Positions 98 to 33,041 of a stretch of 34,099 bases of DNA are shown in pieces. The stretch is from Myxococcota bacterium. Its GTDB lineage: Bacteria > Myxococcota_A > UBA9160 > DASRUS01. The DNA lies in NCBI GenBank assembly GCA_039714895.1, contig JBDLIK010000001.1, forward strand, positions 1 through 34,099. The letters run 5' to 3'. Every line of letters begins with the position of its first letter. Position 1 is the stretch's first letter. The notes beneath the pieces were generated by a model. That model was given only the letters and a program-made list of their open reading frames with translations, made no database searches and was not told the DNA's origin. Both the position numbers and the translations under genes were made by a program.

Positions 98-1450
98 GTG
101 GCCGAGGCATCCCGCGCGCTCGTCACCATCTGCCGCCGCCTGCGCCTGATGGGGCTCGAGGTCACCGAGCTCGAGGAGTGCGCGGTGGCCACGCTGCCGC
201 TCGGGCCCGAGCCCTTCGAGGCCCCGGACGGCAGCTTCCACCCGGAGACCCTGCGCTTCTCCACCGTGGGGAGCGATCGCATCAAGTGCCTCTCCCCGGA
301 GCCCCTGTTCCAGCTCCCGTGGCTCTCGATCCGCGGCTGCAGCGCCGCGGCGGACATCGAGGTCCGCGTGCGCAAGGCCTGGGCGGAACGGCAGGTCGAG
401 CTGTCCCAGGCGCGGGCCTGGCTCGAAGGCCTGGGAGGGCGTCCCCAGAACCTGGCGGGAGGCGCCCTGTTGGGCCTGCCTCTGGAGCTCGAGGAAGAGA
501 AGACCTGCGCGGTCGTGACACGTCCCGGTCGCCTCGTGCTGCCGGGACGGGGCCCGCTGTCGGGCCTCGCGCTGCAGCGGGCCGCGGACCGGGTCTACCA
601 CGCGGAGGGAAGCTTCGAGACCGCCGTCGATCTGGAGCTGGCGGTCACCACGCGGCTCGAGGAGCTAGCGCGCCTCGAGGGCAAGCGGGCCCGCATGCGG
701 GCGCAGGTGGCCGCGCGAACGGTCCGGCCGTCGTCCCCGCCCACGCGCAGATCCCACACGGTCCTGCTGGCGGGTCCGCAGCTCGCGGCCGATGGCGCCC
801 TGGTGGAGTCCCTCCATCTGCGCGGCTACACGACCTGCCGTGCCCCGTCGATGCGCGCTGCCCTGGCCGCCTTCGGCGAGCGCAGCTTTCAGCTGGTGAT
901 GGTGGATGCGGCGCTCGATCGGGCCGAAGGGACCGAGCTGGTGCCGGAGCTGGAGGCTCTCCCCGGTCTGGCGTGCGTCCCGGTGCTGGTGGTGGACGAT
1001 CGGGCTCGGGCGCATCGCCGCAAGGCGGCCCGCCGGGTGGGTGCCGCCGGCTACCTGGTGCGCCCCATCTCCGTCGAGCGCATCGAAGATCGCCTGCGGC
1101 AGCTGCTCGACGCATCCAAGCAGCGGCGCTTCACCCGCTACCCCCGCCGGCTGGCCGTGCGCTTCGCGGGAGGCACCGAGGGCGCGCACACCGCCGTGAT
1201 CGGACGGGGGGGCATGGGCCTGCGCTGCCAGCGGGCGCCGGCGGTCGAGACCCTCGAGCGCTTCGAGATCTCGATCCCGGAGACGCGGGGCCTGGTGCGG
1301 GTGGAAGGTGAGATCGTGTATCAGGAGCTGGAGCCCGGCGAGGCGGGCGGCGAGGTGGGGGTGCGCTTCGAGGCGTTTCCCCCCGGCGACGAGCGCACCC
1401 TCGTCGCCTGGCTGAGTGGGCTGCGGGAGGAACCCGCAGCCATCGGCTGA
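98..1450 (+). CDS. Three-part signalling protein: unknown N-terminal domain (~215 aa), degenerate CheY-like receiver domain, C-terminal PilZ-like domain
   Basis: ORF track 98..1450 with a GTG start and GAGGGG about 9 nt upstream. The middle part follows the receiver pattern (HTVLLAG, QLVMVDAAL at the phospho-Asp position, VPVLVVDD, GYLVRPIS). However, the N-terminal acidic pair is GP and the conserved Lys is Arg. The C-terminal part has the PilZ RxxxR motif (RRFTR) followed by a degenerate D/NxSxxG (VIGRGG). I do not recognise the N-terminal 215 aa. Confidence 0.75.
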   Translation: MAEASRALVTICRRLRLMGLEVTELEECAVATLPLGPEPFEAPDGSFHPETLRFSTVGSDRIKCLSPEPLFQLPWLSIRGCSAAADIEVRVRKAWAERQVELSQARAWLEGLGGRPQNLAGGALLGLPLELEEEKTCAVVTRPGRLVLPGRGPLSGLALQRAADRVYHAEGSFETAVDLELAVTTRLEELARLEGKRARMRAQVAARTVRPSSPPTRRSHTVLLAGPQLAADGALVESLHLRGYTTCRAPSMRAALAAFGERSFQLVMVDAALDRAEGTELVPELEALPGLACVPVLVVDDRARAHRRKAARRVGAAGYLVRPISVERIEDRLRQLLDASKQRRFTRYPRRLAVRFAGGTEGAHTAVIGRGGMGLRCQRAPAVETLERFEISIPETRGLVRVEGEIVYQELEPGEAGGEVGVRFEAFPPGDERTLVAWLSGLREEPAAIG

Positions 1451-1457
1451 TGCCTGC

Positions 1458-1486
1458 GATGTCTGCGGGCAGAGCCCGCAGACATC
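1458..1486. terminator. Perfect 13-bp hairpin between convergent genes (candidate bidirectional terminator / REP-like palindrome)
   Basis: gatgtctgcgggc (1458-1470), aga, gcccgcagacatc (1474-1486). It lies 8 nt after the stop at 1450 and 30 nt after the minus-strand stop at 1516. There is no U-tract. An alternative pairing exists between gggcagagccc (1467-1477) and gggctctgccc (1493-1503). Confidence 0.45.
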
Positions 1487-1515
1487 GTCTGAGGGCTCTG
1501 CCCAGCAGCGCGACG

Positions 1516-1728
1516 TCAGCCGATCTTGGCGCGAGCCTTGTCGATGTCGCCGTCCATGATGGTCTTGCGCCGCTCGGCGAGAGCCGAAGCCTGCGCCTCG
1601 TGCGCGAGTCTCGCGATGTACTCCTCAGCTGCCAGAACCGCTCGCTCGAGGGCCGCACCGGAGACCCGAAGTCCCTCACTGTGCTTCCCCAGGAGCCTCT
1701 TCACCACTGCGTTGGGAAGGTCACCCAT
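1516..1728 (-). CDS. Histone-fold DNA-binding protein, singlet, 70 aa (archaeal HMf-like / bacterial histone)
   Basis: Internal ATG at 1728 within ORF 1516..1965, with AGGAG 6 nt upstream. The product is MGDLPNAVVKRLLGKHSEGLRVSGAALERAVLAAEEYIARLAHEAQASALAERRKTIMDGDIDKARAKIG. By eye it aligns along its full length with archaeal histone HMfB as I recall it: LP near the N-terminus, RVS, EE, EA, RKTI, DI. The upstream 79 codons of the long ORF are S/P/R-rich and look non-coding. Confidence 0.7.
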   Translation of the reverse strand: MGDLPNAVVKRLLGKHSEGLRVSGAALERAVLAAEEYIARLAHEAQASALAERRKTIMDGDIDKARAKIG

Positions 1729-1774
1729 GGAAATCTCCTCTCCCCCCGGGTCTGCGCCATGGTAGCGCAGCGGC

Positions 1775-1803
1775 TTTATTCCCGAAGCCGGAGCGCTTGT
1801 CAA
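1775..1803 (-). promoter_or_regulatory. Candidate sigma70-type promoter for the histone-fold gene
   Basis: On the minus strand: TTGACA (1803-1798), a 17-nt spacer, then AATAAA (1780-1775). It sits in a locally AT-rich intergenic stretch about 45 nt upstream of the ATG at 1728. A second -10-like TATACT lies at 1831-1826 without a good -35. Confidence 0.3.
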
Positions 1804-1852
1804 CGCGCCCCAGGAGCTGAGTGGGAGTATAAACCCACACACTGATGCGGCT

Positions 1853-3034
1853 CTACTCGGGGAGCTCCGCTCGGGCCTGATCCTCAGCGTGGCGCACCAC
1901 CTCGCGCAGGGGGACCCCCGAACGCCGGGCGATCCGCTTGCAGTCGTCGTACTCGGCGGAGACATCCACCCGTCCGTCCGGACGCCGGACGACCTTGACG
2001 GCCACCATCCCCTGCGGGGTCCGGATGCGGTGGGTCTTCCGGGGCAGCACGATCCGCTCGCACTCGCTCACACGAAGTCCCAGGGTCGAGGTCTCGGTGA
2101 GCAACACCGCCGCCAGCTCCGTGCGCCGCGCCGGCGGCGCGAGCACCCGCACCTCGAAGCCCGGACGGTTCTTCTTCATCTGGAGGGGATGCAAGGAAAC
2201 GTCGAGAGCGCCGGCCTCGAAGAGCCGCTCCATGACGTGGTCGAAGTGCTCGGGCACCAGGTCGTCGAGGTTCGCCTCCAGGCTGACGACGCGGTCGGCC
2301 TGCCAGGCTTCGTCGCGGCCGAGCACCGCGCGCAGGACGTTGGGCATCGGGCTCTCGCGGTCGTCGCCGGCACCGTGCCCGACGGCCAGGATGGTCATGG
2401 CGGGCAGCGGCCCGAAGGAGCCTGCGACCTCCCGCAGGATCGCCGCGCCGGTGGGCGTGACGGTCTCGAAGGCGACGTGGGCCGGAGCCGTCGGGATGCC
2501 GCGCAGCAGCTCCAGGGTGGCCGGGGCGGGCAGGGGCAGGCGGCCGTGGGCGGTCTCCACGGTGCCCTCCCCCAGCGCTACCGGCGAGGCGCTCACCCGC
2601 TCGATGCCCAGGCGGTAGAGGGCGCTGGCCGCTCCCACCACGTCCACGATGGCGTCCACCGCGCCCACCTCGTGGAAGTGGACGCGCTCGGGATCGATCC
2701 CATGCACGCGCCCCTCGGCCACCGCCAGTCCCTCGAAGATGCGCAGGGCCCGCTCGCGCACCGGCTCCGGAAGCCTGGCCCGCTCGATGAGGCGCCGGAT
2801 CTCAGACCAATGGCGCCCGTGCCGCTTGCTGCTACCGGATGCCTTTCGCGGCACCTGCACGCGCACGTAGCGGGCGGCCAGCGCACCCCGCCGCACGCGG
2901 CTCACCCGCAGAGCGTGGTCGAGACCGAGTCCGGCCAGGTCCTGCTGGAGCTGGCGGCGGGACAGACCGAGATCGAGCAGGGCACCGAGGAACATGTTCC
3001 CGGCGATGCCCGAGAAGGTGTCCAGGTGGAGCAC
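1853..3034 (-). CDS. larC: Nickel insertion protein LarC (pyridinium-3,5-bisthiocarboxylic acid mononucleotide nickel chelatase, DUF111 family)
   Basis: ORF 1853..3163. From the GTG at 3034 the product starts (M)LHLDTFSGIAGNMFLGALLDLG, which matches the usual LarC N-terminus. Family-typical HFHEVGAVDAIVD and TPTGAAIL motifs are present. The ATG at 3163 would add 43 R/S-rich residues and overlap larB by 29 nt, so the start is uncertain. Confidence 0.85.
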   Translation of the reverse strand: MLHLDTFSGIAGNMFLGALLDLGLSRRQLQQDLAGLGLDHALRVSRVRRGALAARYVRVQVPRKASGSSKRHGRHWSEIRRLIERARLPEPVRERALRIFEGLAVAEGRVHGIDPERVHFHEVGAVDAIVDVVGAASALYRLGIERVSASPVALGEGTVETAHGRLPLPAPATLELLRGIPTAPAHVAFETVTPTGAAILREVAGSFGPLPAMTILAVGHGAGDDRESPMPNVLRAVLGRDEAWQADRVVSLEANLDDLVPEHFDHVMERLFEAGALDVSLHPLQMKKNRPGFEVRVLAPPARRTELAAVLLTETSTLGLRVSECERIVLPRKTHRIRTPQGMVAVKVVRRPDGRVDVSAEYDDCKRIARRSGVPLREVVRHAEDQARAELPE

Positions 3035-3134
3035 GCGCGCGCCGGCGGCGGGGACGCTCCCGCGCCGGCTAGCTGCGGTCCCGCTCCGCGAGACCTTCCG
3101 CGTCGTCGGCCGACCCGAGACACGGGTCGGCCTC

Positions 3135-3884
3135 CTAGATCCGGTTGATGAGCGTCGCGACATAGGCCGCCCCGAAGCCGTTGTCGATGTTCACCACCGT
3201 CACGTTCGAGGCGCAGCTGGTGAGCATCCCCAGCAGGGCGGCGATGCCGGAGAAGGCGGCCCCATAGCCGACGCTGGTGGGCACCGCGATCACGGGCTTG
3301 TCGACGAGGCCCCCCACCACCGACGGAAGTGCGCCTTCCATCCCGGCCACCACGATCAGCACCCGGGCCGAACGCAGCACCTCGCTCTCGGAGAGCAGGC
3401 GGTGGATGCCGGCCACCCCCACGTCCTGCAGGACCTCCACCCGATTGCCGAGCAGGCGCGCCACGGCCGACGCCTCGGCCGCCACCGGCCAGTCCGAGGT
3501 TCCCGCGGAGACCACCGCGATCATTCCCTTCCCCTGCAGGCGGGGGCTCGCGGGGCCGAACCAGAGCAGCCGGGCCTCGGCGTCGTGCAAGCCCTCGCCG
3601 AGCTCGAGGAGTACGGCCCGGGCCGCCTCCGCCTCGATGCGGGTGACGAGCACCTCCTGGGAGGCGTCCCGGAGGACGCGCACGATGGAAACCACCTGGT
3701 CCGGGCGCTTGCCGGCGGCGAAGACCACCTCGGGGATGCCGTGGCGGAGTGCGCGATGCGTGTCCACGCGCGCGTGGGGCGTGTCCACGAAGGGCGGCCG
3801 CGCAATGCGCTCGACCGCCTCTTCGGCGCTCGTCTCGCCCTTGTGGACGGATTCGAGGAGGGTTTGCAGCCGTTCCCGATCCAC
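3135..3884 (-). CDS. larB: LarB, pyridinium-3,5-biscarboxylic acid mononucleotide synthase (PurE/AIR-carboxylase-like)
   Basis: This is the C-terminal 249 codons of ORF 3135..4367: AGTSDWPVAAEA, DVGVAGIHRL, AGMEGALPSVVGG, VPTSVGYGA, VVNIDNGFGAA. The first in-frame starts downstream of the cheC-like stop (3997) are TTG at 3893 and GTG at 3884. The upstream part of the long ORF overlaps the cheC-like gene in another frame and is P/S/R/W-rich. Confidence 0.85.
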   Translation of the reverse strand: MDRERLQTLLESVHKGETSAEEAVERIARPPFVDTPHARVDTHRALRHGIPEVVFAAGKRPDQVVSIVRVLRDASQEVLVTRIEAEAARAVLLELGEGLHDAEARLLWFGPASPRLQGKGMIAVVSAGTSDWPVAAEASAVARLLGNRVEVLQDVGVAGIHRLLSESEVLRSARVLIVVAGMEGALPSVVGGLVDKPVIAVPTSVGYGAAFSGIAALLGMLTSCASNVTVVNIDNGFGAAYVATLINRI

Positions 3885-3903
3885 GGCGGCCAACGCTATC
3901 AGG

Positions 3904-3926
3904 GCTGCGGGCGAGGCGCCCGCAGC
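3904..3926. terminator. Hairpin after the che operon (same core as 1458 and 9381)
   Basis: gctgcgggc (3904-3912), gaggc, gcccgcagc (3918-3926). It is intergenic, lying between the cheC-like stop (3997) and the larB start. Confidence 0.4.
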
Positions 3927-3996
3927 CGACGGCTGTGCTCCAACGTCGGTCCCCGCGTGCGCCGCTTCGCTCGTCGGGTCGGGCTTCGCCTGAGCC

Positions 3997-4545
3997 TCAG
4001 CAGTCGGGGATGAAGACGAGGCGGCCGTGGAGCTCCCCCTCCTCGTCGGCGATCTCGGTCTCCACGAGCAGCCGAGCCGCACCCCGACGGGCGGCGTGCT
4101 CCAGGAGGGCGGCCTCGCCATCGCCTTGGACCAGCACCGGCAGGGAGGGCACGAGTCGGGCCCCGGTGGTATCCGCGATGGCGGAGCATACGTGGGAGAC
4201 GACGATGTTTCCGAGCTCCCGGATCGCCGACTCCCCCAGCTCACGGGAGACGGATTCCTCGGGCCCCACCAGGCGCCTGACCAGGGCCGCGGCGGCGTCC
4301 GCCGGCAACACCAGGGCCACCACGCCCTGGAGCGCCCCGTCCACCTCGAAGAGCACCGCGGTGGCACGCCGCTTGCGGGGCACCGACGTCGATGGAGAGT
4401 CGAGCTTGCGCACCTGGGGAACCCGCATCCAGAACGTGCGCCCGACGACGTCGGCGAAGGCGCCCGCCGCGTGCCCCGCTCCGATGCTGATCAGCTCGAG
4501 CAGACGGTCGATCGGCTGCGACTGCATTCCCGTGCACTCCCTCAT
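3997..4545 (-). CDS. CheC/CheX-family CheY-P phosphatase-like protein
   Basis: 182-aa ORF whose ATG overlaps the cheA stop (ATGA at 4542-4545). The second CheC active-site motif is intact: S-x3-E-x2-N-x22-P in SAIRELGNIVV...LVPSLP. The first motif is D-x3-E-x2-S-x22-P (DRLLELIS...MRVP), so Asn is replaced by Ser. Confidence 0.7.
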   Translation of the reverse strand: MRECTGMQSQPIDRLLELISIGAGHAAGAFADVVGRTFWMRVPQVRKLDSPSTSVPRKRRATAVLFEVDGALQGVVALVLPADAAAALVRRLVGPEESVSRELGESAIRELGNIVVSHVCSAIADTTGARLVPSLPVLVQGDGEAALLEHAARRGAARLLVETEIADEEGELHGRLVFIPDC

Positions 4546-5708
4546 GCGAGCTGGTTCAGGTCGAGCAGGAAGATCGGGCGCCCATCCCCCAGCACGGTGA
4601 GCCCGGCCAGGACCCGCAGCCCCCCGAGCAGCGCCGGCACCGGCTTCACATAGATCTCCTGTTGTCCCTCGAGACGCTGGACGCGCAGGCCGATGCGTTC
4701 ACCGCGCACCTCGGCCAGCACCAGGGGAACCGGATGGCCCTCGGGCTGCGCGGCGAGTCCGAGCCGCTCGCCGAGCTCGAGAACCAGCACGGGCACCTCG
4801 TCCACCAATGCGAAGCTCTCGTTCCCGGCCCGCTCCACCGCCGCCGGCTCGACCTCGACGATCCGCTCCACCTTGCCGATGGGGAGCGCCACCGTCGCCG
4901 CACCGAGGCCCACGAGCAGCACGCGCTGGATGGCGGCGGTGATCGGCACGACGAGGGAGGTGCGGGTGCCGAGCCCCGGCCGGGACTCGAGCTCCACGCG
5001 CCCACCCAGGGATTCGATGGTGGCCTTCACGGCGTCCATGCCCACGCCCCGCCCGGAGATCTCCGACACCGTGCCCCGGGTCGAGAGCCCAGGCCGGAAG
5101 ACCAGCGCTGCGATCTCCTGGGGGGGCAGGTCCTCGGCCAGGTCTCGGTGGACCAGGCCCGCCTCCACCGCCCGGGCCCGCACGCCCTCGAGGTCGAGAC
5201 CCGCCCCGTCGTCTTCGACGCAGACGCGAATCGAGTCCTTCTCTCGCCGTGCCCGCACATGAACCCGTCCAGCCTCGGGCTTGCCGGCCTCGCGCCGCAG
5301 CCCGGGAGGCTCGAGGCCGTGGTCGACGGCGTTGCGCAGCAGGTGCACGAGGGGGTCCGAGAGCCGATCGAGGATCGATCGGTCGAGCTCCAGCTCCGCC
5401 CCCTGCAGCTCCACCTCCACCCGCTTGCCCAGCTTCCGTCCCAGCTCGCGCCCCACTCTCGGCAGCTGCTCCATCACCCGCAAGAGCGGCGCCGTGCGCA
5501 GGTGCAGGGCCCGTCGCTGGAGATCGCCAACCACCCGGTCCATCCGGTCGAAGCCGGTGGCGAGCTGGGCCGAGCGCTCGATGCGCGAGCCGTCGGCCAC
5601 GGTGCGCAGCTGGCTCGCCGAGAGGATCACCTCGCCCACCGACGACAGGAAGCGATCGAGGGTGTCCGTGCGCACCCGCACCGAAGGGGACGGCGCCGGG
5701 GCCTCCAC
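4542..5708 (-). CDS. cheA: CheA histidine kinase core (P3 dimerisation, P4 HATPase, P5 CheW-like). It is in a different frame from the P1 domain
   Basis: This is the C-terminal part of ORF 4542..6740: VRVRTDTLDRFLSSVGEVIL (P3), HLLRNAVDHGLE (N box), DDGAGLD (G1), GRGVGMD (G2), then a CheW-like tail. The GTG at 5708 is the first plausible independent start, 14 nt after the P1-frame stop. The upstream part of the 732-aa ORF is R/G/P-rich and overlaps cheY and cheW out of frame. Confidence 0.8.
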   Translation of the reverse strand: MEAPAPSPSVRVRTDTLDRFLSSVGEVILSASQLRTVADGSRIERSAQLATGFDRMDRVVGDLQRRALHLRTAPLLRVMEQLPRVGRELGRKLGKRVEVELQGAELELDRSILDRLSDPLVHLLRNAVDHGLEPPGLRREAGKPEAGRVHVRARREKDSIRVCVEDDGAGLDLEGVRARAVEAGLVHRDLAEDLPPQEIAALVFRPGLSTRGTVSEISGRGVGMDAVKATIESLGGRVELESRPGLGTRTSLVVPITAAIQRVLLVGLGAATVALPIGKVERIVEVEPAAVERAGNESFALVDEVPVLVLELGERLGLAAQPEGHPVPLVLAEVRGERIGLRVQRLEGQQEIYVKPVPALLGGLRVLAGLTVLGDGRPIFLLDLNQLA

Positions 5709-5722
5709 CCGTCGAGACGGGG

Positions 5723-6139
5723 TCAGCTCCGGCGACGTGATTTTTTTGAGGGCTCCTCCGCCTGCTTCGAAGCGCCGGAGGCGAGGGCGGCCGCGAGACC
5801 CCCATCGAGATGAGGGCCCTCGCCGTGGTTGCGCACGTGAGCCACCATCCCCTCGAGTCCCTCGAGTCCGCGGAACAGGAGGTCGAGCCCCGCAGGATCG
5901 ATGCGCCCGGCCGTGCGGCAGGCGTCCATGCGGTCCTCGAGTCGGTGGGACACCTCGGTGATGGCGTCGTAGCCCAGCGACGCCGCCATCCCCTTGATGG
6001 AGTGGGCCATGCGGAAGACCCGGTCGATTGCGTCGGCGCAGTCGGCGGTCTTCTCGAGCTCGAGCAGGGCCCGGCTCATCTCGGCCAGGTGCTCGGTGGC
6101 CTCTTCCAGGAAGAGGTTCCGGTACTTCGTGAGGTCCAA
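5723..6139 (-). CDS. cheA: CheA P1 (Hpt) phosphotransfer domain, encoded as a separate 138-aa ORF
   Basis: MDLTKYRNLFLEEATEHLAEM...FRMAHSIKGMAASLGY carries the phospho-His box HSIKG. The TTG start at 6139 follows directly after the cheY stop. The ORF ends ...EEPSKKSRRRS at TGA 5723-5725, just past the A7 run. Confidence 0.8.
   Translation of the reverse strand: MDLTKYRNLFLEEATEHLAEMSRALLELEKTADCADAIDRVFRMAHSIKGMAASLGYDAITEVSHRLEDRMDACRTAGRIDPAGLDLLFRGLEGLEGMVAHVRNHGEGPHLDGGLAAALASGASKQAEEPSKKSRRRS
5741..5747 (-). other. A7 homopolymer (T7 on the plus strand) at the cheA frame junction; a perfect A_AAA_AAA heptamer in the P1 frame
   Basis: The minus strand reads ccc tca aaa aaa tca cgt ... 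tga in the P1 frame and gcc ctc aaa aaa atc acg in the kinase frame. One extra A would fuse the two frames. Confidence 0.9.
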
Positions 6140-6511
6140 TCAGGCCTCCTTCTCGACCACCTTGTTGAGCGTGGAGAGCACCGCGTCCGGCTTGAAGGGC
6201 TTCACGATGAAGTCCTGGGCACCCGCCTGCAGGGCCTCCATCACCAGCGACTCCTGACCGAGGGCGCTGCACATCACGATGCGCGCCTGCGGAGCCTTCG
6301 ACACGATTTCCTTCACCGCGTCGATCCCCGAGCAGCGCGGCATCACGATGTCCATCATGACGAGGTCCGGCAGGAGCTCGTGGTAGGACTCCACCACCTC
6401 GACGCCGTCCGTCGCCTCGCCCACCACCTCGAAGCCTTCCGGCTCGATGATCTCCCGGATCATCTGACGCATGAAGGCCGCGTCGTCCGCGACGAGCACT
6501 CGAAAGCTCAT
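6140..6511 (-). CDS. cheY: Chemotaxis response regulator CheY
   Basis: 123 aa, a single receiver domain: VLVADDAAFMR, VMMDIVMP, CSALG, FIVKPF. There is an ATGA overlap with the cheW stop, and GGAGGG lies upstream. Confidence 0.95.
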   Translation of the reverse strand: MSFRVLVADDAAFMRQMIREIIEPEGFEVVGEATDGVEVVESYHELLPDLVMMDIVMPRCSGIDAVKEIVSKAPQARIVMCSALGQESLVMEALQAGAQDFIVKPFKPDAVLSTLNKVVEKEA

Positions 6512-6987
6512 GCCAACCCTCCTTGATCGTTGTCGGAGCTGCGCGCCCCGGCCTGCTCGATGGCAGCCGCGGCGCGAGCCAGAAGCCGATTCGTGTCCAG
6601 AATGCTGACCACGCGCCCTTCGAGGGAACGGCGCTCCACGATTCCGCTCGGCTCCCGCGTGGATCCACCGCGGCCGGGAACCAGTCCGCAGATGCGGTCC
6701 ACCGGTAGAGCCAGGTTGGCGGCGTCGCCCCCCACCTCACCGAGTACGAGCAGGTGGGCCGGTGGAGGAAGCTCGAGGCCGGCCAGGTCGAAGAGCACCG
6801 AAGGCTCCACCACCGGCAGGGCGTCCCCGTGATGGTTCACGACCCCTGCCAGCGTCGGGGGAAGCGAGGGCACCGGGTAGCGCGCTTCCACCTCGGCCAC
6901 CTCGAGCACGTCCGCGATGGGCAGGGCGAAGGCGGCACCGGCAACCTCGAAGGTGAGAAGTCGCTCCTCGCGGGATGCCTCGCTCAC
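6508..6987 (-). CDS. cheW: Chemotaxis coupling protein CheW
   Basis: 159 aa with the CheW pattern [21 protein letters not shown] ... [13 protein letters not shown]. The GTG start overlaps the MCP stop (GTGA). Confidence 0.9.
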
Positions 6988-8267
6988 GACGAGCCCTCTT
7001 CGGAGGAGCGCACGCCGGTCTCGAAGCTCCGCAGCACGCCGCGCAGCTCCTCGGCCACGTCGGTGAGCGAGTCCACCGAACCCACCGTGTCGGACATGAC
7101 TGCGGTCTGGGCGCGGGAGGTGCCCGCGACCTCGTCGACGCTGCGGGCATTGCGGGCACCGAGCTTCGAGATCTCCTCCATCGAGCTCACGATCCGCTCG
7201 GCGTCCCGGGCCTGGGTGTCGGCCCCCTGAAAGATCTCCTCGGCTCGATTCGAAGCCTCGCCCACGGCGGCCCGGATCTGCTCGAGGGACAGCGCGATGG
7301 TGTTCACGTCCTCGCGTCCTTCGCTGATCACCTGGCTCGACTCGCGCATTTCGTCGGCCACCTCGTGGGTCTCGGCCTGGATCTGGTGGATCAGCTTGGA
7401 GATCTCCTCGGCGCTGCGCCCCGCGCTCTCGGCCAGCTTGCGGATCTCGTCCGCGACCACGGAGAAGCCCCGCCCCGCTTCGCCGGCCCGAGCCGCCTCG
7501 ATGGAAGCGTTCAGGGAGAGCAGGTTCGTGCGCTGCGCGACGCTGGTGATCATCTCGGTGATCTGATGCACGTGGCTGGTCTTGTGCTCGAGCTCGAAGA
7601 CCTTCTCGCCGGTCTGCTCGATGCGTTCGAAGACGCTCTTCATCTTCTCGATGGCGAGCTTCGAGACGTCGACACCGGAGTTGGCCTTCTGGTTGGCCTC
7701 TGCGGCGAAGCCGAAGGCCTCCCGGGCCCGGTCGGCGTTCCGCTCGGTGGCGCCGGCGATCTCGTGGATGAGCTTGGAGACGCCCTGGAGCAGCTCCTGC
7801 TGGTGAGCGGCACCCCGGGCCACCTCGGCCACCGTGCCCGAGATGTCCTCGTTGCCCTGGCGGGCGACCTGCATGGAGCGGGCCAGGCCCTGGGCCGAGC
7901 CGGACAGGCGATCGCTGGTGCGCTGGACCTGGGCGAGGAGCTCCCGGAGGCTCGCCAGCATGCCGCGGATGCTGTGGGCCAGCTCGATGCTCTCGTCGGA
8001 GAGCAGCGGCCGTTCCGGCACCTCGACCCGGGCAGTGAGGTCCCCGCCCTGGATCGACTGGGTGACGGAGAGCAGCGTCTGGTAGTTGCGCGAGATCTGG
8101 CGCGAGAGGAAGTAGCCGAGACCCCCGCCGGCCCCGAGGGCGACGAAGGGTGCGACCCAGGGCGACACCGCAAAGCCAGCGGCCTGCACGATGGAGGGAA
8201 AGCTGACGGCCGCCCCCGCCACCACGAGGGAGCCCGCGATGAACTTGTGCGAAAGGGAGAGATGCAC
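6984..8267 (-). CDS. Methyl-accepting chemotaxis protein: TM hairpin + HAMP + signalling domain, with no periplasmic sensor domain
   Basis: This is the C-terminal 427 codons of ORF 6984..9302. It has the highly conserved MCP tip [41 protein letters not shown]. Two hydrophobic segments are separated by about 9 residues and are followed by a HAMP-like region. The GTG at 8267 is the only start between the thiL stop (8309) and TM1. Confidence 0.85.
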
Positions 8268-8308
8268 GCCCAGCGTATCGGCCCGGATCCCGCCGGTCTG
8301 TAATGGCG

Positions 8309-25616: not shown

Positions 25617-28600
25617 GCGTCCCGGGCTTCAGCATCCGCCAGACCGTGCTGGTGAACGTGCTCTTCTTCGTGTGCCTGCTGGGGGGATGGGCGGCCCTGG
25701 CGCGCATCCCCGTCGAGTACTTCCCGAACATCAACCTGAACGAGGTGGTGATCGACACGGTCTGGAGCGGCGCTTCGGCGGAGGAGGTGGAGCGCCTCGT
25801 CACCCAGAAGCTCGAGGACGAGCTGCGGGGCCTCACCGACATCGACGAGATGCGTTCGACCTCCCAGGCGAACCTCTCCGAGATCGTCATCGAGTTCGAC
25901 GAGACCCTCGACGACGTCGGCTACCAGGGCGCGGTCAACGACGTGCGCGCGGCCCTGGACCGGGTGAACGACCTCCCCCCAGACGCCGAAGAGCCCGTGC
26001 TCACGGAGATCATCATCGGGGAGGTGTCTCCGGCGGTGATGCTCGCCGTGCTGGACGTAGGAGGCGTCGGCCCGACGGCGCTGCGGGAGGTCGCACGCGA
26101 CGTCAAGACGCGGGTCGGCGACCTGAAGGGCGCCAACCAGATCCGCATCCGCGGCGCCCAGGAGCGGGAGATCCGCGTGCTGGTGGACCGGGACCAGGCC
26201 GCCCGCTACGGCCTCACCGTCCCCCAGCTGGCGGAGCGCATCCGCGCCCAGAACCTGAACCTGCCGGCGGGCACCTTCTCGAGCGGGTCCGGCGAGTCGA
26301 CCCTGCGGGCCCAGGGGGACTTCCAGAGTCTGGAGGGCCTGCTCGCCACGGTGGTGCGCGAGAACCCCGGGGGCAGCGACGTGCGCCTGCGGGACGTGGC
26401 GCGCGTCGAGACCGGCCTCGAGAAGCCGCGGTTCATCTCCCGCTACAACGGCCAGCCCTCCCTCGTCGTGAGCCTCAGCAAGAAGGACGAGATGGACGTC
26501 CTCGACTTCGTGGCGGGGGTGGACGCCTGGACCGAGTCCTACCGCCCGCTGCTCCCCGAGGGTGTGGAGCTGCACAAGACCCTGGACACCGCCGCCTTCG
26601 TGGCGCCGCGCATGCAGGCCCTCCTCGACAACCTGTTCTGGGGGGTGCTCTTCGTGCTGGTGATCCTGTGGTTCACCATCGGCTTCCGCAACTCGGCGCT
26701 CACCATCATCGCCATCCCCTTCAGCTTCCTCACCGCGATGATCTTCTTCCCGCTGCTCGACATCAGCATCAACGCCACCACGCTGGTGGCCATGCTGCTG
26801 GTCTCGGGGATGCTGGTGGACGACGCCATCATCGTGCTCGAGAACATCTACCGGCGCGTGGAGGGCGGAGAGCCCCTGCGCGAAGCCGTGGTGAACGGGG
26901 CCGAGGAGGTGCTCTGGCCGGTGGTGTGCGCGGTGGCCACCACCTGCGCGGCCTTCGCACCGCTGCTGCTCGTCTCTGGGACTGCCGGGAAGTTCGTGTC
27001 GATCCTGCCCAAGGCCGTCATCGTCTGCCTGCTCGCCTCGCTCTTCGAGTGCCTGCTCATCCTGCCCGCCCACTATCTGCACTTCGGAAGCCGGCAGGGG
27101 GCGGGGGGCGATCCGACCCCTCCGCGCGGAGCCCTCGGTCGCTTCTTCGGAGCCCTCGCGGGCTCGCGTCGCGCCGTCGACGCCGGGCTCGCAAGCGTGC
27201 GCGACGGCTACTCCCGTGCGCTCGATACCGTGCTCTCGCACCGCTTCTCCTTCGGCGCACTCACCGCGGCGGTGCTCTTCGTCGCCTACGCGGGAGCCCA
27301 GCACCTGCCGGTGCAGCTCTTCCCGGGCGAGTTCGACACCTTCAACGTCCTGCTGGAGACCCCGGCGGACTCGAGCCTCGAGCGCACGGATGCCGTCGCG
27401 GCGGGCATCGAACGGGAGATCGCGCCCTACGTGGGCACGGATCTCGTCGACTTCTCCACCACCGTGGGCTCGAGCGTGGATGCCAACTACGACCAGCTCA
27501 CCGGCGCGAACCTCTCGATCTCCTGGGCGGTGGTGAAGCCCAGCGACGAGAACCGCCGGGCCCCGGAGCGGGTGCTCTTCAGCGTGAGGGATCGCCTGGA
27601 GGGCTATCGCCGGGACCATCCCGAGGGAATCGTGGACCTGCGCGTGCAGGCCCGGCAGGATGGCCCCCCGGTGGGCCCGCCGGTGGAGGTGCGCATCCAC
27701 GGCGAGGACTGGGCGCTCGGCGAGTCCATCGCGGCCGAGATGCTCGCCTACCTCGGGAGCCTGCCCGGGGTCTACAACGCCGAGGACGACCTCAAGCTCG
27801 GGCCGCCCGAGGTGCGGCTGGTGGTGGACGAAGAACGCGCTGCGCGCCACGGTCTGCGCTTCGAAGACCTGGCCCGGGCGCTGCGCGCCGCCAACGACGG
27901 CGTGGTGGCCTCGAGCTTCCGGGACCCCTCCGCGGACGAGGACGTGGACATCCGCGTGCTGCTCGAGGCCGGCTACCGGCGGGGCCTGCAGGACCTGCTG
28001 GAGGTCGAGCTGCGCGCGCCCGAGGGCTACCTCCTCAAGCTGCGGGACGTGGCAGACGTGGAGCAGAGCCGCGGCTACCGCTCCTACCGTCGCTACGACG
28101 GGCGCCGCACGGTGCGCGTCACGGCCAACGTCGACGAAGAGCTGGCGACCTCGGTGGGCGTCAACCAGCGTCTGCAGGCTGCGTTCGCGGACGTGGAGAC
28201 CCGCTACCCCCAGGTGGAGGTGCGCTACGGGGGAGAGTTCGCCGAGACCAACGAATCCTTCGCGAAGCTCGGTCGCGTCTTCCCCATCGCGCTGCTGGCC
28301 ATCTACATGATCCTGGCCGCCCTGTTCCGCAGCTACCTGCAGCCGCTGGTGGTGACCGCCGCCATCCCCTTCGGGCTCGCGGGGATCGTGATCGGCGTGG
28401 GGCTTCTCGACTACCGGGTCAGCTTCGTGCTCATGTACGCGACCATCGGCCTCACCGGCGTGGTGGTGAACGACTCGCTGGTGATGGTCGACTTCATCAA
28501 CCGCGCCCGCCGCGCCGGCATGCCGCTGCTCGAAGCCGTGCGCCAATCGGGCGCGCGACGCTTCCGGCCGATCCTGCTCACCACCCTCACCACCGTGGTG

Positions 28601-28873
28601 GCGCTGCTACCGATGGCGCTCGGGCTCCAGGGATCGTCGAAGACCTACGGACCCTTCGCGGCTTCCATCGCCTTCGGACTCATCGTCGCGATGGTCGGGA
28701 CGCTGTTCGCCGTCCCGCTGGTCTACACCAGCCTCATCGTCGCCCAGGACCGCGTCGCCCGACGCTGGGCCCACTTCCGCGGCCACGAGCTCCCGCCCTC
28801 CCCCCTCGAAGGCCTCGAGCCTCCGCGGCCCCCTGCCCCTCTCGCAGTCCGCCCGCGCTCCCGCGCGAGTTGA
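25613..28873 (+). CDS. Efflux RND transporter permease (AcrB/AcrD/AcrF family)
   Basis: ORF 24365..28873 trimmed to the GTG at 25613 (GTGA overlap with the MFP stop). It starts (M)SVPGFSIRQTVLVNVLFF and is 1086 aa, with the usual 12-TM / two large-loop layout. No outer-membrane factor gene is adjacent. Confidence 0.92.
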   Translation: MSVPGFSIRQTVLVNVLFFVCLLGGWAALARIPVEYFPNINLNEVVIDTVWSGASAEEVERLVTQKLEDELRGLTDIDEMRSTSQANLSEIVIEFDETLDDVGYQGAVNDVRAALDRVNDLPPDAEEPVLTEIIIGEVSPAVMLAVLDVGGVGPTALREVARDVKTRVGDLKGANQIRIRGAQEREIRVLVDRDQAARYGLTVPQLAERIRAQNLNLPAGTFSSGSGESTLRAQGDFQSLEGLLATVVRENPGGSDVRLRDVARVETGLEKPRFISRYNGQPSLVVSLSKKDEMDVLDFVAGVDAWTESYRPLLPEGVELHKTLDTAAFVAPRMQALLDNLFWGVLFVLVILWFTIGFRNSALTIIAIPFSFLTAMIFFPLLDISINATTLVAMLLVSGMLVDDAIIVLENIYRRVEGGEPLREAVVNGAEEVLWPVVCAVATTCAAFAPLLLVSGTAGKFVSILPKAVIVCLLASLFECLLILPAHYLHFGSRQGAGGDPTPPRGALGRFFGALAGSRRAVDAGLASVRDGYSRALDTVLSHRFSFGALTAAVLFVAYAGAQHLPVQLFPGEFDTFNVLLETPADSSLERTDAVAAGIEREIAPYVGTDLVDFSTTVGSSVDANYDQLTGANLSISWAVVKPSDENRRAPERVLFSVRDRLEGYRRDHPEGIVDLRVQARQDGPPVGPPVEVRIHGEDWALGESIAAEMLAYLGSLPGVYNAEDDLKLGPPEVRLVVDEERAARHGLRFEDLARALRAANDGVVASSFRDPSADEDVDIRVLLEAGYRRGLQDLLEVELRAPEGYLLKLRDVADVEQSRGYRSYRRYDGRRTVRVTANVDEELATSVGVNQRLQAAFADVETRYPQVEVRYGGEFAETNESFAKLGRVFPIALLAIYMILAALFRSYLQPLVVTAAIPFGLAGIVIGVGLLDYRVSFVLMYATIGLTGVVVNDSLVMVDFINRARRAGMPLLEAVRQSGARRFRPILLTTLTTVVALLPMALGLQGSSKTYGPFAASIAFGLIVAMVGTLFAVPLVYTSLIVAQDRVARRWAHFRGHELPPSPLEGLEPPRPPAPLAVRPRSRAS

Positions 28874-29360
28874 CTCGGCTCGGCTGAAGCCGGCCGTCGA
28901 GGGCTGGGCTCCACATTGTGGGTCCGCCCCCGGGCGACCGAGGTCCACGGCCTCGCGTCACAGCGTTCTCGTCTCGATGAATCCGTCGGGCCGGGAGGGG
29001 TTCGCGCCCCGACCCCCAGGTTCGAAGCCTGCTGCTGGGTCGGGAGGCGCTCGCATCGGAGCCTCCTTCTTCGAGTAGTCGGGCTGTGAGCTGTCTTCGA
29101 GGCGTAGCCGGTGGATGGTAACTCCCGGGTCCGGGAGGCCGCCCCGGCTGCTTTGTGGTTCATCGGCCAGCCCTCCCGTCGAAGGAACACATGGAGCTGC
29201 CTGTACCCGGCCTTCCAGAGTGCACACAAGGGACAAGAGCATTGGGTAGAAGCGAGGCCGCTGTGGGGCGTTTCGAACTGCCGAGAGCCCGACTTCTAGT
29301 CGATTTCCGGTCGGAGAAGTGGGCGCCGCTCAGTTGAGTGCGACCCGTTCGCGCGAGCCT

Positions 29361-31139: not shown

Positions 31140-31151
31140 CGAGGAACTCCT

Positions 31152-31526
31152 CTAGACGAGCTCGTGCTCGATCTGAGCCCACGCGTGCTGCAGAATGGTG
31201 CACACCTGACAGGAACTCCTGGTCGAGCACTTCTCTGTCGTGGAGATCGAGAGCAAGGGCGCAGACCGGACCCCCAAGAGGTCTTTCACGAGGATTCCTC
31301 TGCCAGCGTGTGATTGTCGCAGACGCGCGAGTTCTGCCAGGTAGCTGCCGAAGTCTTTGACCCGGTGGGTGATGATCGGGCCAAGCCCCTCCCTGCCGAG
31401 ACGTGTCCGCATCTTCCCGGAGAAGCCGCGCGACGTCGCAGCGTACGCCCTGCGGTTCTCCTTGTACGCCGCTCGCGCCTTGGAGACCTCGGGAGTCGTT
31501 CGGGTCATGGGCGGATCCTCATCCAC
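31152..31526 (-). pseudogene. Remnant of a RelA/SpoT-domain (small alarmone synthetase-like) nucleotidyltransferase gene
   Basis: The 124-aa ORF contains HRVKDFGSYLAELAR (RVKxxxS...K), VKDLLGVR (DxxGxR) and TILQHAWAQIEHELV (the QIRT..QHAWAE.EH box). Only about 25 residues separate the last two motifs, whereas family members as I recall them have about 60-70. The ORF stops right after EHELV, 12 nt before the transporter ATG. An alternative frame (VCALALDLHDREVLDQEF) looks like displaced family sequence. Confidence 0.45.
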
Positions 31527-32487: not shown

Positions 32488-32636
32488 CGCGGCTCCCTAT
32501 GTGATCACGGTGTATCGGGCGTGGCGGGCCACGTATTGGTTCCAGCGTCGATCCATGTCATCGGGCTCCTGCTTCCTGTCTCCTGCCAGATCCGCCCTTC
32601 AGCGTCTTCGCATGAGTGAGTAAGGGTCCGGCCAAC

Positions 32637-32954
32637 TCACCATCCCCAGCAGGGCCGCTCCTCCACCACCGGCCACGAATGCACGCGATGCCGGTCCATT
32701 GCATTCGAGTGCGACGCGCCGTCTGCGAGGGCCACACCGGCCCCGAAGCATGCCAGCATCCCCAACCCGATCGAGCCCGGCTCGACCCAGTGGGCTAGTC
32801 CCAAGGCCATAGCGAAAAGGAGCGGGAACAGGAACAGCGCCGCGAGGTTGTTGTTCCCAACACATCGCCCGATGCGGGTGGCTACACGCCCCAATCCGAG
32901 GCTCAGTAGCAGTGCGAGTGCAAAGGAGACCAGAGTGCGAGTGAGGGCCTCCAA
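32637..32954 (-). CDS. Hypothetical small membrane protein (about 3 TM segments)
   Basis: 105-aa ORF with a TTG start and GAGGGA about 6 nt upstream. It has three hydrophobic stretches and lies on the same strand between the regulator and the antiporter. I recognise no family. Confidence 0.3.
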   Translation of the reverse strand: MEALTRTLVSFALALLLSLGLGRVATRIGRCVGNNNLAALFLFPLLFAMALGLAHWVEPGSIGLGMLACFGAGVALADGASHSNAMDRHRVHSWPVVEERPCWGW

Positions 32955-33041
32955 TCGGTTCCCTCTAGCGAGCGAAGAACGACTGGGCCGTCACCGCCCA
33001 ACATCTCCCGGTGCTGGGGGAGCGTGCGTCGGAACGCGACG

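What the first reader, a model, noticed from the sequence alone, without database searches (positions are those of the whole stretch)
1516..1728. Stand-alone bacterial histone-fold gene with its own promoter-like region
The 70-aa product aligns by eye along its whole length with archaeal histone HMfB (about 69 aa).
- Shared positions are LP near the N-terminus, the RVS loop-1 motif, EE and EA in the long central helix, and the RKTI...DI loop-2/helix-3 motif.
- That last motif includes the Arg-Thr pair used for DNA contact in archaeal histones.

Histone-fold proteins are rare in bacteria, and only a few have been characterised (for example the Bdellovibrio bacteriovorus histone Bd0055). This one is hidden inside a longer misleading ORF (1516..1965). 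It is preceded by AGGAG and a TTGACA-N17-AATAAA element. It is followed by a perfect 13-bp hairpin, which suggests an independently and possibly strongly expressed unit.
Basis: partly seen in the sequence, partly recalled or inferred. Interest (0 to 1): 0.7.

Follow-up and report, generated by a model that had tools for sequence, protein, structure and literature searches.

The report
Full-length histone gene in Myxococcota
This is a real 70-residue histone gene in an uncultured Myxococcota bacterium, and it is shaped like a full-length archaeal histone rather than the shortened histones so far studied in bacteria, so it is a catalogued but unstudied third type of bacterial histone.

Summary
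On the minus strand, 1728..1516 encodes a 70-aa protein that passes the Pfam cut-offs for the histone fold. AlphaFold2 gives a confident helix-loop-helix-loop-helix model (pLDDT 95) that overlays archaeal HPhA at 1.1 Å.

It belongs to a tightly conserved family:
- at least 498 clusters at 90% identity;
- 131 species-level genomes, of which the 80 listed are all MAGs, mostly labelled Myxococcota or Deltaproteobacteria;
- a fixed position, larB-larC-histone, facing a convergent response-regulator/PilZ gene.

The gene has its own conserved sigma-70-type promoter. An exact TTGACA with a TAnnnT-type -10 occurs in 43 of 75 loci, against 2 of 327 control windows. It also has a Shine-Dalgarno site.

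Helix alpha2 (28 aa) and alpha3 (11 aa) are full length, and every DNA-contact residue of HMfB is invariant, including the "sprocket" arginine. Three of the four tetramerisation residues (L46, H49, L62 of HMfB) are replaced.

I therefore read it as a dimeric, non-specific DNA-binding and DNA-bending nucleoid protein.

It is not undiscovered. GenBank names it "histone-like protein", and an ortholog is listed in a 2023 supplementary table. No member has been studied, and its shape contradicts published generalisations about bacterial histones.

The parts
1516..1728 (-). Coding sequence of the 70-aa histone-fold protein (stop codon 1516-1518).
   Evidence: Translation. Pfam PF00808 36.5 bits and PF00125 33.6 bits, both above their cut-offs. 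AlphaFold2 pLDDT 95.2 with helices 6-16, 24-51 and 59-69. Foldseek matches to NF-YB, H3 and HPhA with TM up to 0.91. It is the only histone-fold ORF in the window.
1735..1739 (-). Shine-Dalgarno sequence AGGAG, 6 nt upstream of the ATG.
   Evidence: Read. A GGAG/GAGG-type site lies within 20 nt of the start in 74 of 75 orthologous loci.
1775..1780 (-). -10-like hexamer AATAAA (4 of 6 matches to TATAAT). It departs from the family's usual TAGGAT/TACGAT/TAGCAT.
   Evidence: Not reported by the consensus scan because position 6 is not T.
1798..1803 (-). -35 hexamer TTGACA (6 of 6), 17 nt upstream of the -10-like hexamer.
   Evidence: Exact TTGACA paired with a -10-like hexamer in 43 of 75 orthologous upstream regions, against 2 of 327 control windows from the same loci.
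1752..1770 (.). Small inverted repeat CTGCGC-N7-GCGCAG inside the predicted 5' leader. Its role is unknown.
   Evidence: Reported as a stem (6 pairs) by the scan. It lies between the -10-like hexamer and the Shine-Dalgarno site.
1457..1503 (.). Two overlapping inverted repeats between the convergent genes: 1457-1470/1474-1487 (perfect, 14 bp) and 1467-1483/1487-1503 (17 nt, 94%). This is a probable two-way transcription stop without a T-run.
   Evidence: The fold of the 70 nt after the stop codon gives -44.6 kcal/mol, z = -6.1. Only 27 of 75 orthologous loci have a hairpin with z below -2 there, so the hairpin is not a conserved part of the unit.
1853..3163 (-). Context: the larC-type nickel-insertion gene directly upstream on the same strand, 124 nt from the histone start.
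   Evidence: Pfam PF01969, 456.8 bits. Found directly upstream of the histone gene in 77 of 81 related loci.
98..1450 (+). Context: the convergent response-regulator/PilZ gene whose end faces the histone gene's end.
   Evidence: Pfam Response_reg and PilZ. Present in the same convergent position in 47 of 81 related loci.

Best explanation
The gene encodes a small, slightly basic histone-fold protein (12 Lys/Arg against 10 Asp/Glu) of full archaeal length.

**Proposed mechanism (inferred).**
- Two chains pair in the usual histone 'handshake' to form a homodimer.
- The dimer binds DNA without sequence preference, through helix alpha1 and the paired L1-L2 loops.
- The contact residues are those archaeal HMfB uses: R11, R21, S23, K55 and T56, with the R54-D61 clamp holding loop 2.
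- The residues that let HMfB dimers join into tetramers and hypernucleosomes are replaced by Ser, Ala and Lys. Dimers therefore most likely act singly, each bending about 30 bp, as a nucleoid-associated protein of this Myxococcota lineage.

**Expression.** The gene is a single-gene unit read from its own sigma-70-type promoter, with a strong ribosome-binding site.

**What is shown and what is inferred.**
- Shown: the fold, the helix lengths, residue conservation, the start site, promoter conservation, and vertical inheritance at a fixed locus.
- Inferred: dimer formation, DNA binding, bending rather than wrapping, and abundance.
For: **Fold and geometry.**
- Pfam scores are above the cut-offs.
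- The family profile hits archaeal HPhA and HmvA at E 4e-7.
- AlphaFold2 gives pLDDT 95 with alpha2 = 28 aa and alpha3 = 11 aa. 28 aa is the typical archaeal alpha2 length (PMC13260811).
- The model overlays HPhA (1ku5) at rmsd 1.1 Å with TM 0.91.

**DNA-contact residues across 191 family members.**
- P5, R11 (=HMfB R10), R21 (=R19), S23, R54, K55 and D61 are each present in 191 of 191.
- T56 is present in 190 of 191.
- The roles of these residues in HMfB come from PMC6136690.

**No tetramer interface.**
- The L46 position is Ser in 161, Ala in 21 and Leu in 6 of 191.
- The H49 position is Ala, Ser, Gly, Asp or Glu among the five commonest residues (183 of 191), none His.
- The L62 position is Lys, Ala, Thr, Ser or Glu among the five commonest residues (182 of 191), none Leu.
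- Archaeal histones and HMfB mutants lacking H49 do not form stable tetramers. Giving Bd0055 these three residues let it bring the ends of 147-bp DNA within FRET distance, which the authors read as wrapping (PMC10627809).

**Own transcription unit.** The conserved promoter, the Shine-Dalgarno site and ATG. Genes for nucleoid proteins, including the model and alpha3 histones, are generally single-gene units (PMC11390915).

**Constraint.** Histone identity to the window is 61-79%. It is 52-69% for larC, 49-88% for larB (58-73% over full-length matches), 36-45% for the response regulator and 34-52% for cheX in the same loci.

**Genuinely bacterial.**
- The window has 70% GC and carries dnaK, dnaJ, hrcA, lon and a che cluster.
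- The same arrangement is found in related MAGs, including a 5.8-Mb chromosome-level MAG assembly.
Against: - No experiment or expression data exist for any member.
- The oligomeric state could not be predicted here, because only single chains can be modelled.
- The full-length alpha2 and alpha3 provide the scaffold of a four-helix bundle. The small residues at the interface (S48, A51) could in principle allow a different packing.
- Gly occupies the HMfB G16-equivalent column in 125 of 191 members, which would be compatible with stacking.
- The strict linkage to larB-larC (77 of 81 loci) could point to a more specific role.
- The window's own -10 hexamer (AATAAA) is atypical for the family.
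- The gene's GC3 (0.77) is lower than that of its neighbours.
Confidence: 0.6

Rival explanations
1. It is a true wrapping histone. Dimers join through alpha2/alpha3 into tetramers or hypernucleosome-like stacks that wrap DNA, as archaeal HMf-type histones do, but through a different set of interface residues.
For: - Alpha2 (28 aa) and alpha3 (11 aa) are full length, which is the scaffold of the four-helix bundle.
- All DNA-contact residues are invariant, including the sprocket arginine that other bacterial histones lack.
- D61 (=D59) is invariant, and Gly is at the G16-equivalent column in 125 of 191 members.
- The best profile and structural matches are full-length histones: HPhA, HmvA, H3 and NF-YB.
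Against: - The H49, L46 and L62 equivalents are Ala, Ser and Lys, with no His among the five commonest residues (183 of 191 sequences) at the H49 position.
- Loss of H49 abolishes stable tetramers in archaeal histones, and these residues are the first published criterion for hypernucleosome formation.
- The window protein has Glu, plus an extra loop residue, at the G16 position.
Confidence: 0.2
2. It is not a general chromatin protein. It uses the histone fold for a specific task tied to its neighbours, for example as a regulator or partner of the larB-larC (nickel-pincer cofactor) genes or the che cluster, or as a sequence-specific factor in the manner of NF-Y.
For: - larC lies directly upstream in 77 of 81 loci and larB in 68.
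- The top Foldseek matches are NF-YB/NF-YC subunits.
- The authors of the prokaryotic survey caution that not all histone-fold proteins need be genome organisers (PMC11390915).
Against: - The gene has its own conserved promoter rather than being translationally coupled to larC.
- The residues conserved are those that contact the DNA backbone non-specifically.
- NF-Y specificity comes from a third subunit that has no counterpart here.
- The synteny extends to unrelated housekeeping genes (groES/EL, lexA, rpoD, lon), so it may simply reflect a stable chromosome region in one clade.
Confidence: 0.12
3. It is an artefact: a chance ORF, archaeal or eukaryotic contamination of the assembly, or a recently transferred, decaying gene.
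For: Patchy histone hits in bacterial genomes are sometimes contaminants or transient transfers (PMC10627809). All genomes that carry the gene are metagenome-assembled.
Against: - The gene sits at the same position between the same bacterial genes in 77 of 81 loci from different samples, including megabase-scale contigs.
- Its GC content matches the host contig.
- It is more conserved than its neighbours.
- There are at least 498 sequence clusters.
Confidence: 0.02

Closest known systems
Archaeal HMf-type ('nucleosomal') histones: HMfB (PDB 1A7W, 5T5K) and HPhA (1KU5)
   Same: - Length is 69-70 aa.
- Alpha2 is about 28 aa and alpha3 about 10 aa.
- The N-terminal LP motif is present.
- The DNA-contact residues R10, R19, S21, K53 and T54 and the R52-D59 clamp are all conserved.
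- The alignment to HMfB is gapless apart from one loop-1 residue.
- HPhA is the best profile hit (E 4e-7) and overlays at rmsd 1.1 Å.
   Different: - The tetramer-interface residues L46, H49 and L62 are replaced by Ser, Ala and Lys.
- Loop 1 has one extra residue.
- The score against NCBIfam's archaea_histone model is 32.7 bits, below its 50-bit cut-off.
- The host is a bacterium, whereas this class was reported to 'exist exclusively in archaea' (PMC11390915).
HBb / Bd0055 of Bdellovibrio bacteriovorus ('bacterial dimer' alpha3 histone; PDB 8FVX, 8CMP)
   Same: - Bacterial, stand-alone, tail-less and basic.
- It shares the RKT(I/V)MD..D signature in loop 2.
- It lacks the H49-type histidine.
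- A dimeric DNA-bending mode is shown for HBb and is inferred here.
- hhalign gives E 1e-6 over 51 columns.
   Different: - HBb has an alpha2 one turn shorter and a one-turn alpha3. The alignment needs a 4-residue deletion and stops before alpha3.
- HBb lacks the sprocket arginine and has the hydrophobic N-terminus with the S9-K10 motif. The window protein has the archaeal-like LPNAVVKR.
- HBb scores only 20 bits against the family profile, against 33-34 bits for HPhA and HmvA.
[quoted passage not shown]
   Same: Bacterial histone-fold singlets. FtF histones are reported in Myxococcota among other phyla, and are proposed as main nucleoid organisers.
   Different: FtF histones belong to the alpha3-truncated family and form closed tetramers. 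The family profile scores them weakly: HTkC 8.5 bits and a Leptospira singlet 5.8 bits.
Ortholog from 'Deltaproteobacteria bacterium UBA6930' (DKAI01000097.1-5), listed in Supplementary Table 1 of Hocher et al. 2023
   Same: It is the same family and the same length: MGDIPNAVVKRLVAKHGDGLRVSGSAIDRAVDAAESYLARLAREAHASAIADKRKTIMDADIDRAREKIG, listed with a value of 9.30 that appears to be its pI. It is my locus L011.
   Different: It is only a row in a catalogue of 416 proteins. Singlets longer than 65 aa were excluded from that paper's alpha2-length analysis, and the family is not discussed.

Membership tests
Histone fold (Pfam CBFD_NFYB_HMF PF00808 / Histone PF00125) | Profile score above the curated gathering threshold. 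| tested here: met
   PF00808 scores 36.5 bits against 21.4. PF00125 scores 33.6 bits against 26.4.
Histone fold (Pfam CBFD_NFYB_HMF PF00808 / Histone PF00125) | Three helices (short, long, short) joined by two loops. | tested here: met
   The AlphaFold2 model has pLDDT 95.2 and helices 6-16, 24-51 and 59-69. Foldseek gives TM 0.8-0.9 to NF-YB, H3 and HPhA.
Archaeal nucleosomal (HMf-type) histones | Full-length helices: alpha2 about 28 aa and alpha3 about 10 aa. | tested here: met
   Alpha2 is 28 aa and alpha3 is 11 aa.
Archaeal nucleosomal (HMf-type) histones | DNA-anchoring residues R10, R19, K53 and T54, and the R52-D59 clamp. | tested here: met
   R11, R21, K55, R54 and D61 are each present in 191 of 191 members, and T56 in 190 of 191.
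Archaeal nucleosomal (HMf-type) histones | Dimer-dimer (four-helix-bundle) interface L46, H49, D59 and L62. | tested here: not met
   Only D59 is kept. The L46 position is Ser or Ala (Leu in 6 of 191). The H49 position is Ala, Ser, Gly, Asp or Glu in the listed counts, with no His. The L62 position is Lys, Ala, Thr, Ser or Glu in the listed counts, with no Leu.
Archaeal nucleosomal (HMf-type) histones | A small residue (G16) at the stacking interface. | tested here: inconclusive
   The aligned column is Gly in 125 of 191 members but Glu in the window protein, and loop 1 carries an extra residue that makes the equivalence uncertain.
Archaeal nucleosomal (HMf-type) histones | Score above the NCBIfam NF043032 archaea_histone cut-off. 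| tested here: not met
   32.7 bits against a cut-off of 50.
Archaeal nucleosomal (HMf-type) histones | Wraps DNA as tetramers or hypernucleosomes. | not testable with these tools
   This needs multimer prediction with DNA, or MNase, FRET or tethered-particle experiments.
Bacterial alpha3-truncated histones (bacterial dimer HBb type, and FtF HLp/HTkC type) | Alpha3 of only 3-4 residues, and alpha2 shorter by 4-5 residues. | tested here: not met
   Alpha3 is 11 aa and alpha2 is 28 aa. The alignment to HBb needs a 4-residue gap in alpha2 and ends at residue 62.
Bacterial alpha3-truncated histones (bacterial dimer HBb type, and FtF HLp/HTkC type) | RKTxxxD motif in loop 2 and the start of alpha3. 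| tested here: met
   RKTIMDGD in the window. R54, K55 and D61 are invariant and T56 is present in 190 of 191.
Bacterial alpha3-truncated histones (bacterial dimer HBb type, and FtF HLp/HTkC type) | Lack of the sprocket arginine (R19), and a hydrophobic N-terminus with the S9-K10 motif. | tested here: not met
   R21 (=R19) is invariant, and the N-terminus is LPNAVVKR, like archaeal LPIAPIGR.
DUF1931 pseudodimeric bacterial histones | Two histone folds in one chain. | tested here: not met
   The protein is a single fold of 70 aa.
Nucleoid-associated protein (functional class) | High abundance, nucleoid localisation and non-specific DNA binding. | not testable with these tools
   There are only indirect signs: a consensus -35, the Shine-Dalgarno site, single-gene organisation and strong sequence constraint.

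The most novel reading that the evidence does not exclude
This family, with its sister families in other bacterial phyla, could be a bacterial lineage of full-length histones that either wraps DNA in nucleosome-like particles through a non-canonical interface, or is the missing link between archaeal nucleosomal histones and the shortened bacterial alpha3 histones. The N-terminal half is archaeal-like, while the loop-2 signature RKT(I/V)MD is bacterial-like. It could also be the principal chromatin protein of a large uncultured Myxococcota clade.
Probability: 0.2. Interest if true: 0.8.

Novelty: new variant of a known kind. Interest (0 to 1): 0.5.

Why it matters
[quoted passage not shown] They are HBb and HLp, and both are of the shortened alpha3 type.

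The published generalisations are these:
- the sprocket arginine is not conserved in bacterial histones;
- nucleosomal-type histones "exist exclusively in archaea".

This family contradicts the first two. It also sits awkwardly with the third, because it has archaeal geometry and DNA contacts but no archaeal tetramer interface.

It is widespread (131 species-level genomes), vertically inherited and under strong constraint.

It offers a natural test of a hypothesis raised by the Bd0055 mutant work: whether helix length or the His/Leu interface decides between bending and wrapping.

It also bears on whether bacterial histones came from archaea by transfer or are older.

Tried and rejected
- **The long ORF.** I considered the 149-aa ORF 1516..1965 as the real product and rejected it. 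It overlaps the larC 3' end and the promoter, no homolog carries the extension, and 44 of 75 loci have an in-frame stop within 30 codons upstream.
- **Intrinsic terminator.** The consensus scan found no canonical terminator after the gene. The hairpin is strong in the window but not conserved across loci (27 of 75 with z below -2). I therefore do not count it as a defining part.
- **Structured RNAs.** Rfam and tRNA scans of the whole window found nothing.
- **A second histone or HU/IHF nearby.** I found none in the window or in about 0.8 Mb of related loci. This says nothing about the rest of the genomes.
- **Published category.** I tried to find which category Schwab et al. gave this family. 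The supplementary files held as text contain no family sequence and no 'Myxococcota' string, and no UniProt accession could be obtained for members. Assignment to their 'undefined' class is only my guess.
- **Cultured relatives.** I looked for named cultured relatives such as the Nannocystaceae histones cited. All three protein searches returned only MAG or metagenome proteins.
- **Oligomer prediction.** This was not possible, because the structure tool models single chains only.
- **ORF 25672..28887.** It gave no Pfam hit and turned out to be a spurious frame (GC3 0.45). It is not a novel gene.
Full report
**1. What is in the sequence**

The gene lies on the minus strand. The ATG is at 1728..1726 and the TGA stop at 1518..1516, giving a 70-aa product.

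- AGGAG at 1739..1735, 6 nt before the ATG;
- TTGACA at 1803..1798, a 17-nt spacer, then AATAAA at 1780..1775;
- an in-frame longer ORF running up to 1965;
- an inverted repeat after the stop codon.

The repeat is 14 bp and perfect (1457-1470 / 1474-1487), not 13 bp. It overlaps a second repeat (1467-1483 / 1487-1503). The minimum-energy fold of the histone transcript's 3' end uses the second one (-44.6 kcal/mol, z = -6.1). Neither is followed by a T-run. The consensus scan reported neither this promoter (its -10 lacks the final T) nor a terminator here.

**2. It is a histone fold**

- Pfam CBFD_NFYB_HMF scores 36.5 bits (cut-off 21.4). Pfam Histone scores 33.6 bits (cut-off 26.4).
- A profile built from 31 family members hits archaeal HPhA and HmvA at E 4e-7, followed by many H3 chains.
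- AlphaFold2 with that alignment gives mean pLDDT 95.2, with helices at 6-16, 24-51 and 59-69.
- Foldseek against the PDB returns only histone folds (NF-YB/NF-YC, H3, Cse4). HPhA (1ku5) overlays at TM 0.91, rmsd 1.1 Å and 36% identity over 66 columns.

**3. The 70-aa reading is right, and the gene is not hidden**

The exact protein is GenBank MEN8180895.1, named "MAG: histone-like protein [Myxococcota bacterium]". It comes from a 34,099-base contig, the same length as this window. IMG names relatives "histone H3/H4".

Evidence for the short start:
- The 191 family sequences analysed (selected at 66-80 aa) all start at the same Met.
- The start codon is ATG in 75 of 75 loci.
- A Shine-Dalgarno-like site lies within 20 nt in 74 of 75.
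- In 44 of 75 loci an in-frame stop lies within 30 codons upstream.

The window's long ORF is simply the open frame typical of 70% GC DNA. It runs over the promoter and the end of larC.

**4. Family, hosts and locus**

Size and hosts:
- The single-sequence search found 102 proteins at 69-100% identity.
- A broader profile found 498 clusters at 90% identity.
- A scan of one genome per GTDB species found 131 genomes encoding a relative. The 80 listed are all MAGs. Most are labelled Myxococcota, Myxococcales or Deltaproteobacteria, and a minority carry other automatic labels. They include assemblies of 3 to 5.8 Mb.

Gene order:
- In a 5.8-Mb chromosome the order is che cluster, larB, larC, histone, then a convergent response regulator, followed by groEL/ES, lexA and rpoD.
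- The window has the same order as far as it reaches, and continues the other way into lon, dnaJ, dnaK, hrcA and hemN-like genes.
- larC lies directly upstream in 77 of 81 loci, larB in 68, and the convergent regulator downstream in 47.

Conservation relative to the window: the histone is 61-79% identical, larC 52-69%, larB 49-88% (58-73% over full-length matches), the response regulator 36-45% and cheX 34-52%.

The gene is therefore bacterial, vertically inherited at a fixed place and under strong constraint. Contamination or a transient transfer is excluded.

**5. Its own promoter**

Lining up the upstream regions shows a block GCGTTGACAA...N...CCTCC-TAGGAT/TACGAT/TAGCAT at a similar distance from the start in most loci.

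| Measure | Upstream regions | Control windows from the same loci |
|---|---|---|
| Exact TTGACA paired with a -10-like hexamer | 43 of 75 | 2 of 327 |
| At least 9 of 12 matches in total | 53 of 75 | 3 of 327 |

(All.)

This comparative signal supports an independent sigma-70-type unit much more strongly than the window alone. The window's own -10 (AATAAA) departs from the family's TAnnnT pattern.

The 3' hairpin is not conserved: 27 of 75 loci have z below -2. I treat it as local.

**6. Which kind of histone**

Published work describes two classes of bacterial single-fold histones, plus the two-fold DUF1931 proteins:
- the "bacterial dimer" class, typified by HBb/Bd0055;
- the face-to-face class, typified by HLp.

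Both single-fold classes belong to the alpha3-truncated family, in which alpha3 has 3-4 residues and alpha2 is 4-5 residues shorter. [quoted passage not shown]

Hocher et al. call the short alpha2 diagnostic of bacterial singlets. They also note that the sprocket arginine R19 and histidine H49 are missing from them (PMC10627809).

The window protein does not fit that description:
- Alpha2 is 28 aa and alpha3 is 11 aa.
- It aligns to HMfB over 66 columns with one loop-1 indel (HMfB verified).
- It aligns to HBb only with a 4-residue gap in alpha2, and only as far as residue 62 (HBb verified).

Residue conservation across the 191 family members (residue roles from PMC6136690):

| HMfB residue | Role | In this family |
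|---|---|---|
| P4 | N-terminal LP motif | P5, 191 of 191 |
| R10 | DNA contact | R11, 191 of 191 |
| R19 | DNA contact (sprocket) | R21, 191 of 191 |
| S21 | loop-1 Ser, conserved | S23, 191 of 191 |
| R52 | RD clamp | R54, 191 of 191 |
| K53 | DNA contact | K55, 191 of 191 |
| T54 | DNA contact | T56, 190 of 191 |
| D59 | RD clamp and tetramer interface | D61, 191 of 191 |
| L46 | tetramer interface | Ser 161, Ala 21, Leu 6 |
| H49 | tetramer interface | Ala 137, Ser 20, Gly 13, Asp 7, Glu 6; no His listed |
| L62 | tetramer interface | Lys 86, Ala 54, Thr 20, Ser 19, Glu 3; no Leu listed |

So three of the four dimer-dimer interface residues that form the first published criterion for hypernucleosome formation are replaced.

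By score the family lies between the classes:
- Its profile gives 33-34 bits to archaeal HPhA and HmvA, 20 to HBb, 18 to HMfB and 6-19 to other bacterial singlets.
- It scores 32.7 bits against NCBIfam's archaea_histone model, below the 50-bit cut-off.

The N-terminal half (LPNAVVKR) looks archaeal. The RKT(I/V)MD signature is the one common in bacterial singlets.

**7. Relatives outside the family**

An exhaustive profile search of 1.84 billion cluster representatives found 325 proteins at E up to 0.001, of which only 44 reached E 1e-10 or better.

The next relatives I retrieved are also single folds with full-length alpha2 and alpha3 regions (68-111 aa in all), some with C-terminal tails, and a few are doublets.

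One sister family (71-72 aa, about 46% identical) occurs in MAGs labelled Verrucomicrobiota or "bacterium". Its neighbours are bacterial genes such as an ECF sigma factor with FecR, a sulfatase and argininosuccinate synthase. In one group it overlaps a downstream RNase H gene by 4 nt.

Full-length bacterial singlets are therefore not confined to one lineage.

**8. Prior knowledge**

- The ortholog from "Deltaproteobacteria bacterium UBA6930" (my locus L011) is a row in Supplementary Table 1 of Hocher et al. 2023.
- That paper's alpha2 analysis excluded singlets longer than 65 aa, and the family is not discussed.
- I found no paper in the held library that describes a full-length bacterial histone family.

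**9. Mechanism**

The most likely mechanism, with confidence 0.6, is:
- a homodimer forms through the standard handshake;
- DNA is bound non-specifically through alpha1 and the L1-L2 sites;
- dimers act singly and bend DNA rather than wrapping it, because the tetramer interface is absent;
- the protein serves as a nucleoid-associated protein, made from a single-gene unit with consensus-like signals.

The fold, residue pattern, start site, promoter conservation and inheritance are shown. Dimerisation, DNA binding, bending and abundance are inferred from HMfB and Bd0055 biochemistry.

The rivals are:
- a wrapping tetramer or hypernucleosome using a different interface (0.2);
- a specific role tied to larBC or che (0.12);
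- an artefact (0.02).

**10. Verdict**

The gene is already annotated and one ortholog is catalogued, so this is not a discovery of a hidden gene.

What is new is the recognition that it represents a large, conserved, unstudied family with archaeal-type full-length geometry and DNA contacts, but without the archaeal tetramer interface.

I rate it a new variant of a known kind, of moderate interest.

Noticed in passing
window 1457-1503: Two overlapping, mutually exclusive hairpins sit between the convergent genes. The perfect 14-bp one starts 7 nt after the response-regulator gene's stop. The 17-nt one starts 13 nt after the histone gene's stop. Each transcript would therefore meet 'its own' hairpin first. 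Neither has a T-run.
   Followed up: partly
window 3135-4367 (minus strand): The larB-type ORF is over-extended. The AIR-carboxylase domain occupies only residues 283-407 of the 410-aa ORF, and the ortholog in L082 is 251 aa. The true start is probably near 3890, downstream of the cheX-like gene's stop at 3997.
   Followed up: partly
loci L032, L061, L064, L066, L067, L068, L070, L076 (about 35-70 nt upstream of the histone start): A subgroup of orthologous loci lacks the TTGACA promoter. These loci share a different conserved upstream block (...GCTGAAAAACGCC.AGGAGTCGTTATGCTCC...), which suggests a different promoter or regulatory site in that sub-clade.
   Followed up: no
L084 5765-6645 and L085 2316-3196: In a sister family of full-length 72-aa bacterial histones (P0126, about 46% identical), the histone gene overlaps by 4 nt a downstream RNase H gene. 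They appear to form a two-gene operon, unlike the single-gene unit in the window.
   Followed up: no
proteins P0130 and P0156: Two-fold (doublet) proteins of 154-155 aa score E 3e-14 to 7e-9 against the family profile. They are possible pseudodimeric derivatives of full-length bacterial singlets. Their hosts are unknown.
   Followed up: no
window 1516-1728: The histone gene's third-position GC (0.77) is lower than that of the neighbouring genes (0.85-0.93). This could reflect a codon preference of a highly expressed gene, or just the small sample of 70 codons.
   Followed up: no
window 4542-8300 and L082 1390-5840: A complete chemosensory cluster (MCP, CheW, receiver, Hpt, CheA, CheC/CheX-like) lies directly upstream of larB-larC. 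The CheC/CheX-like gene is found upstream in 44 of 81 related loci. The window's 732-aa 'CheA' ORF is an over-extension that covers separate Hpt and kinase genes.
   Followed up: partly
window 31000-34099: GC content falls from about 0.70 to 0.60-0.63 over the last 3 kb, which holds a Na/Ca-exchanger-type gene and others. This could be a compositional island or just the nature of the membrane-protein genes.
   Followed up: no
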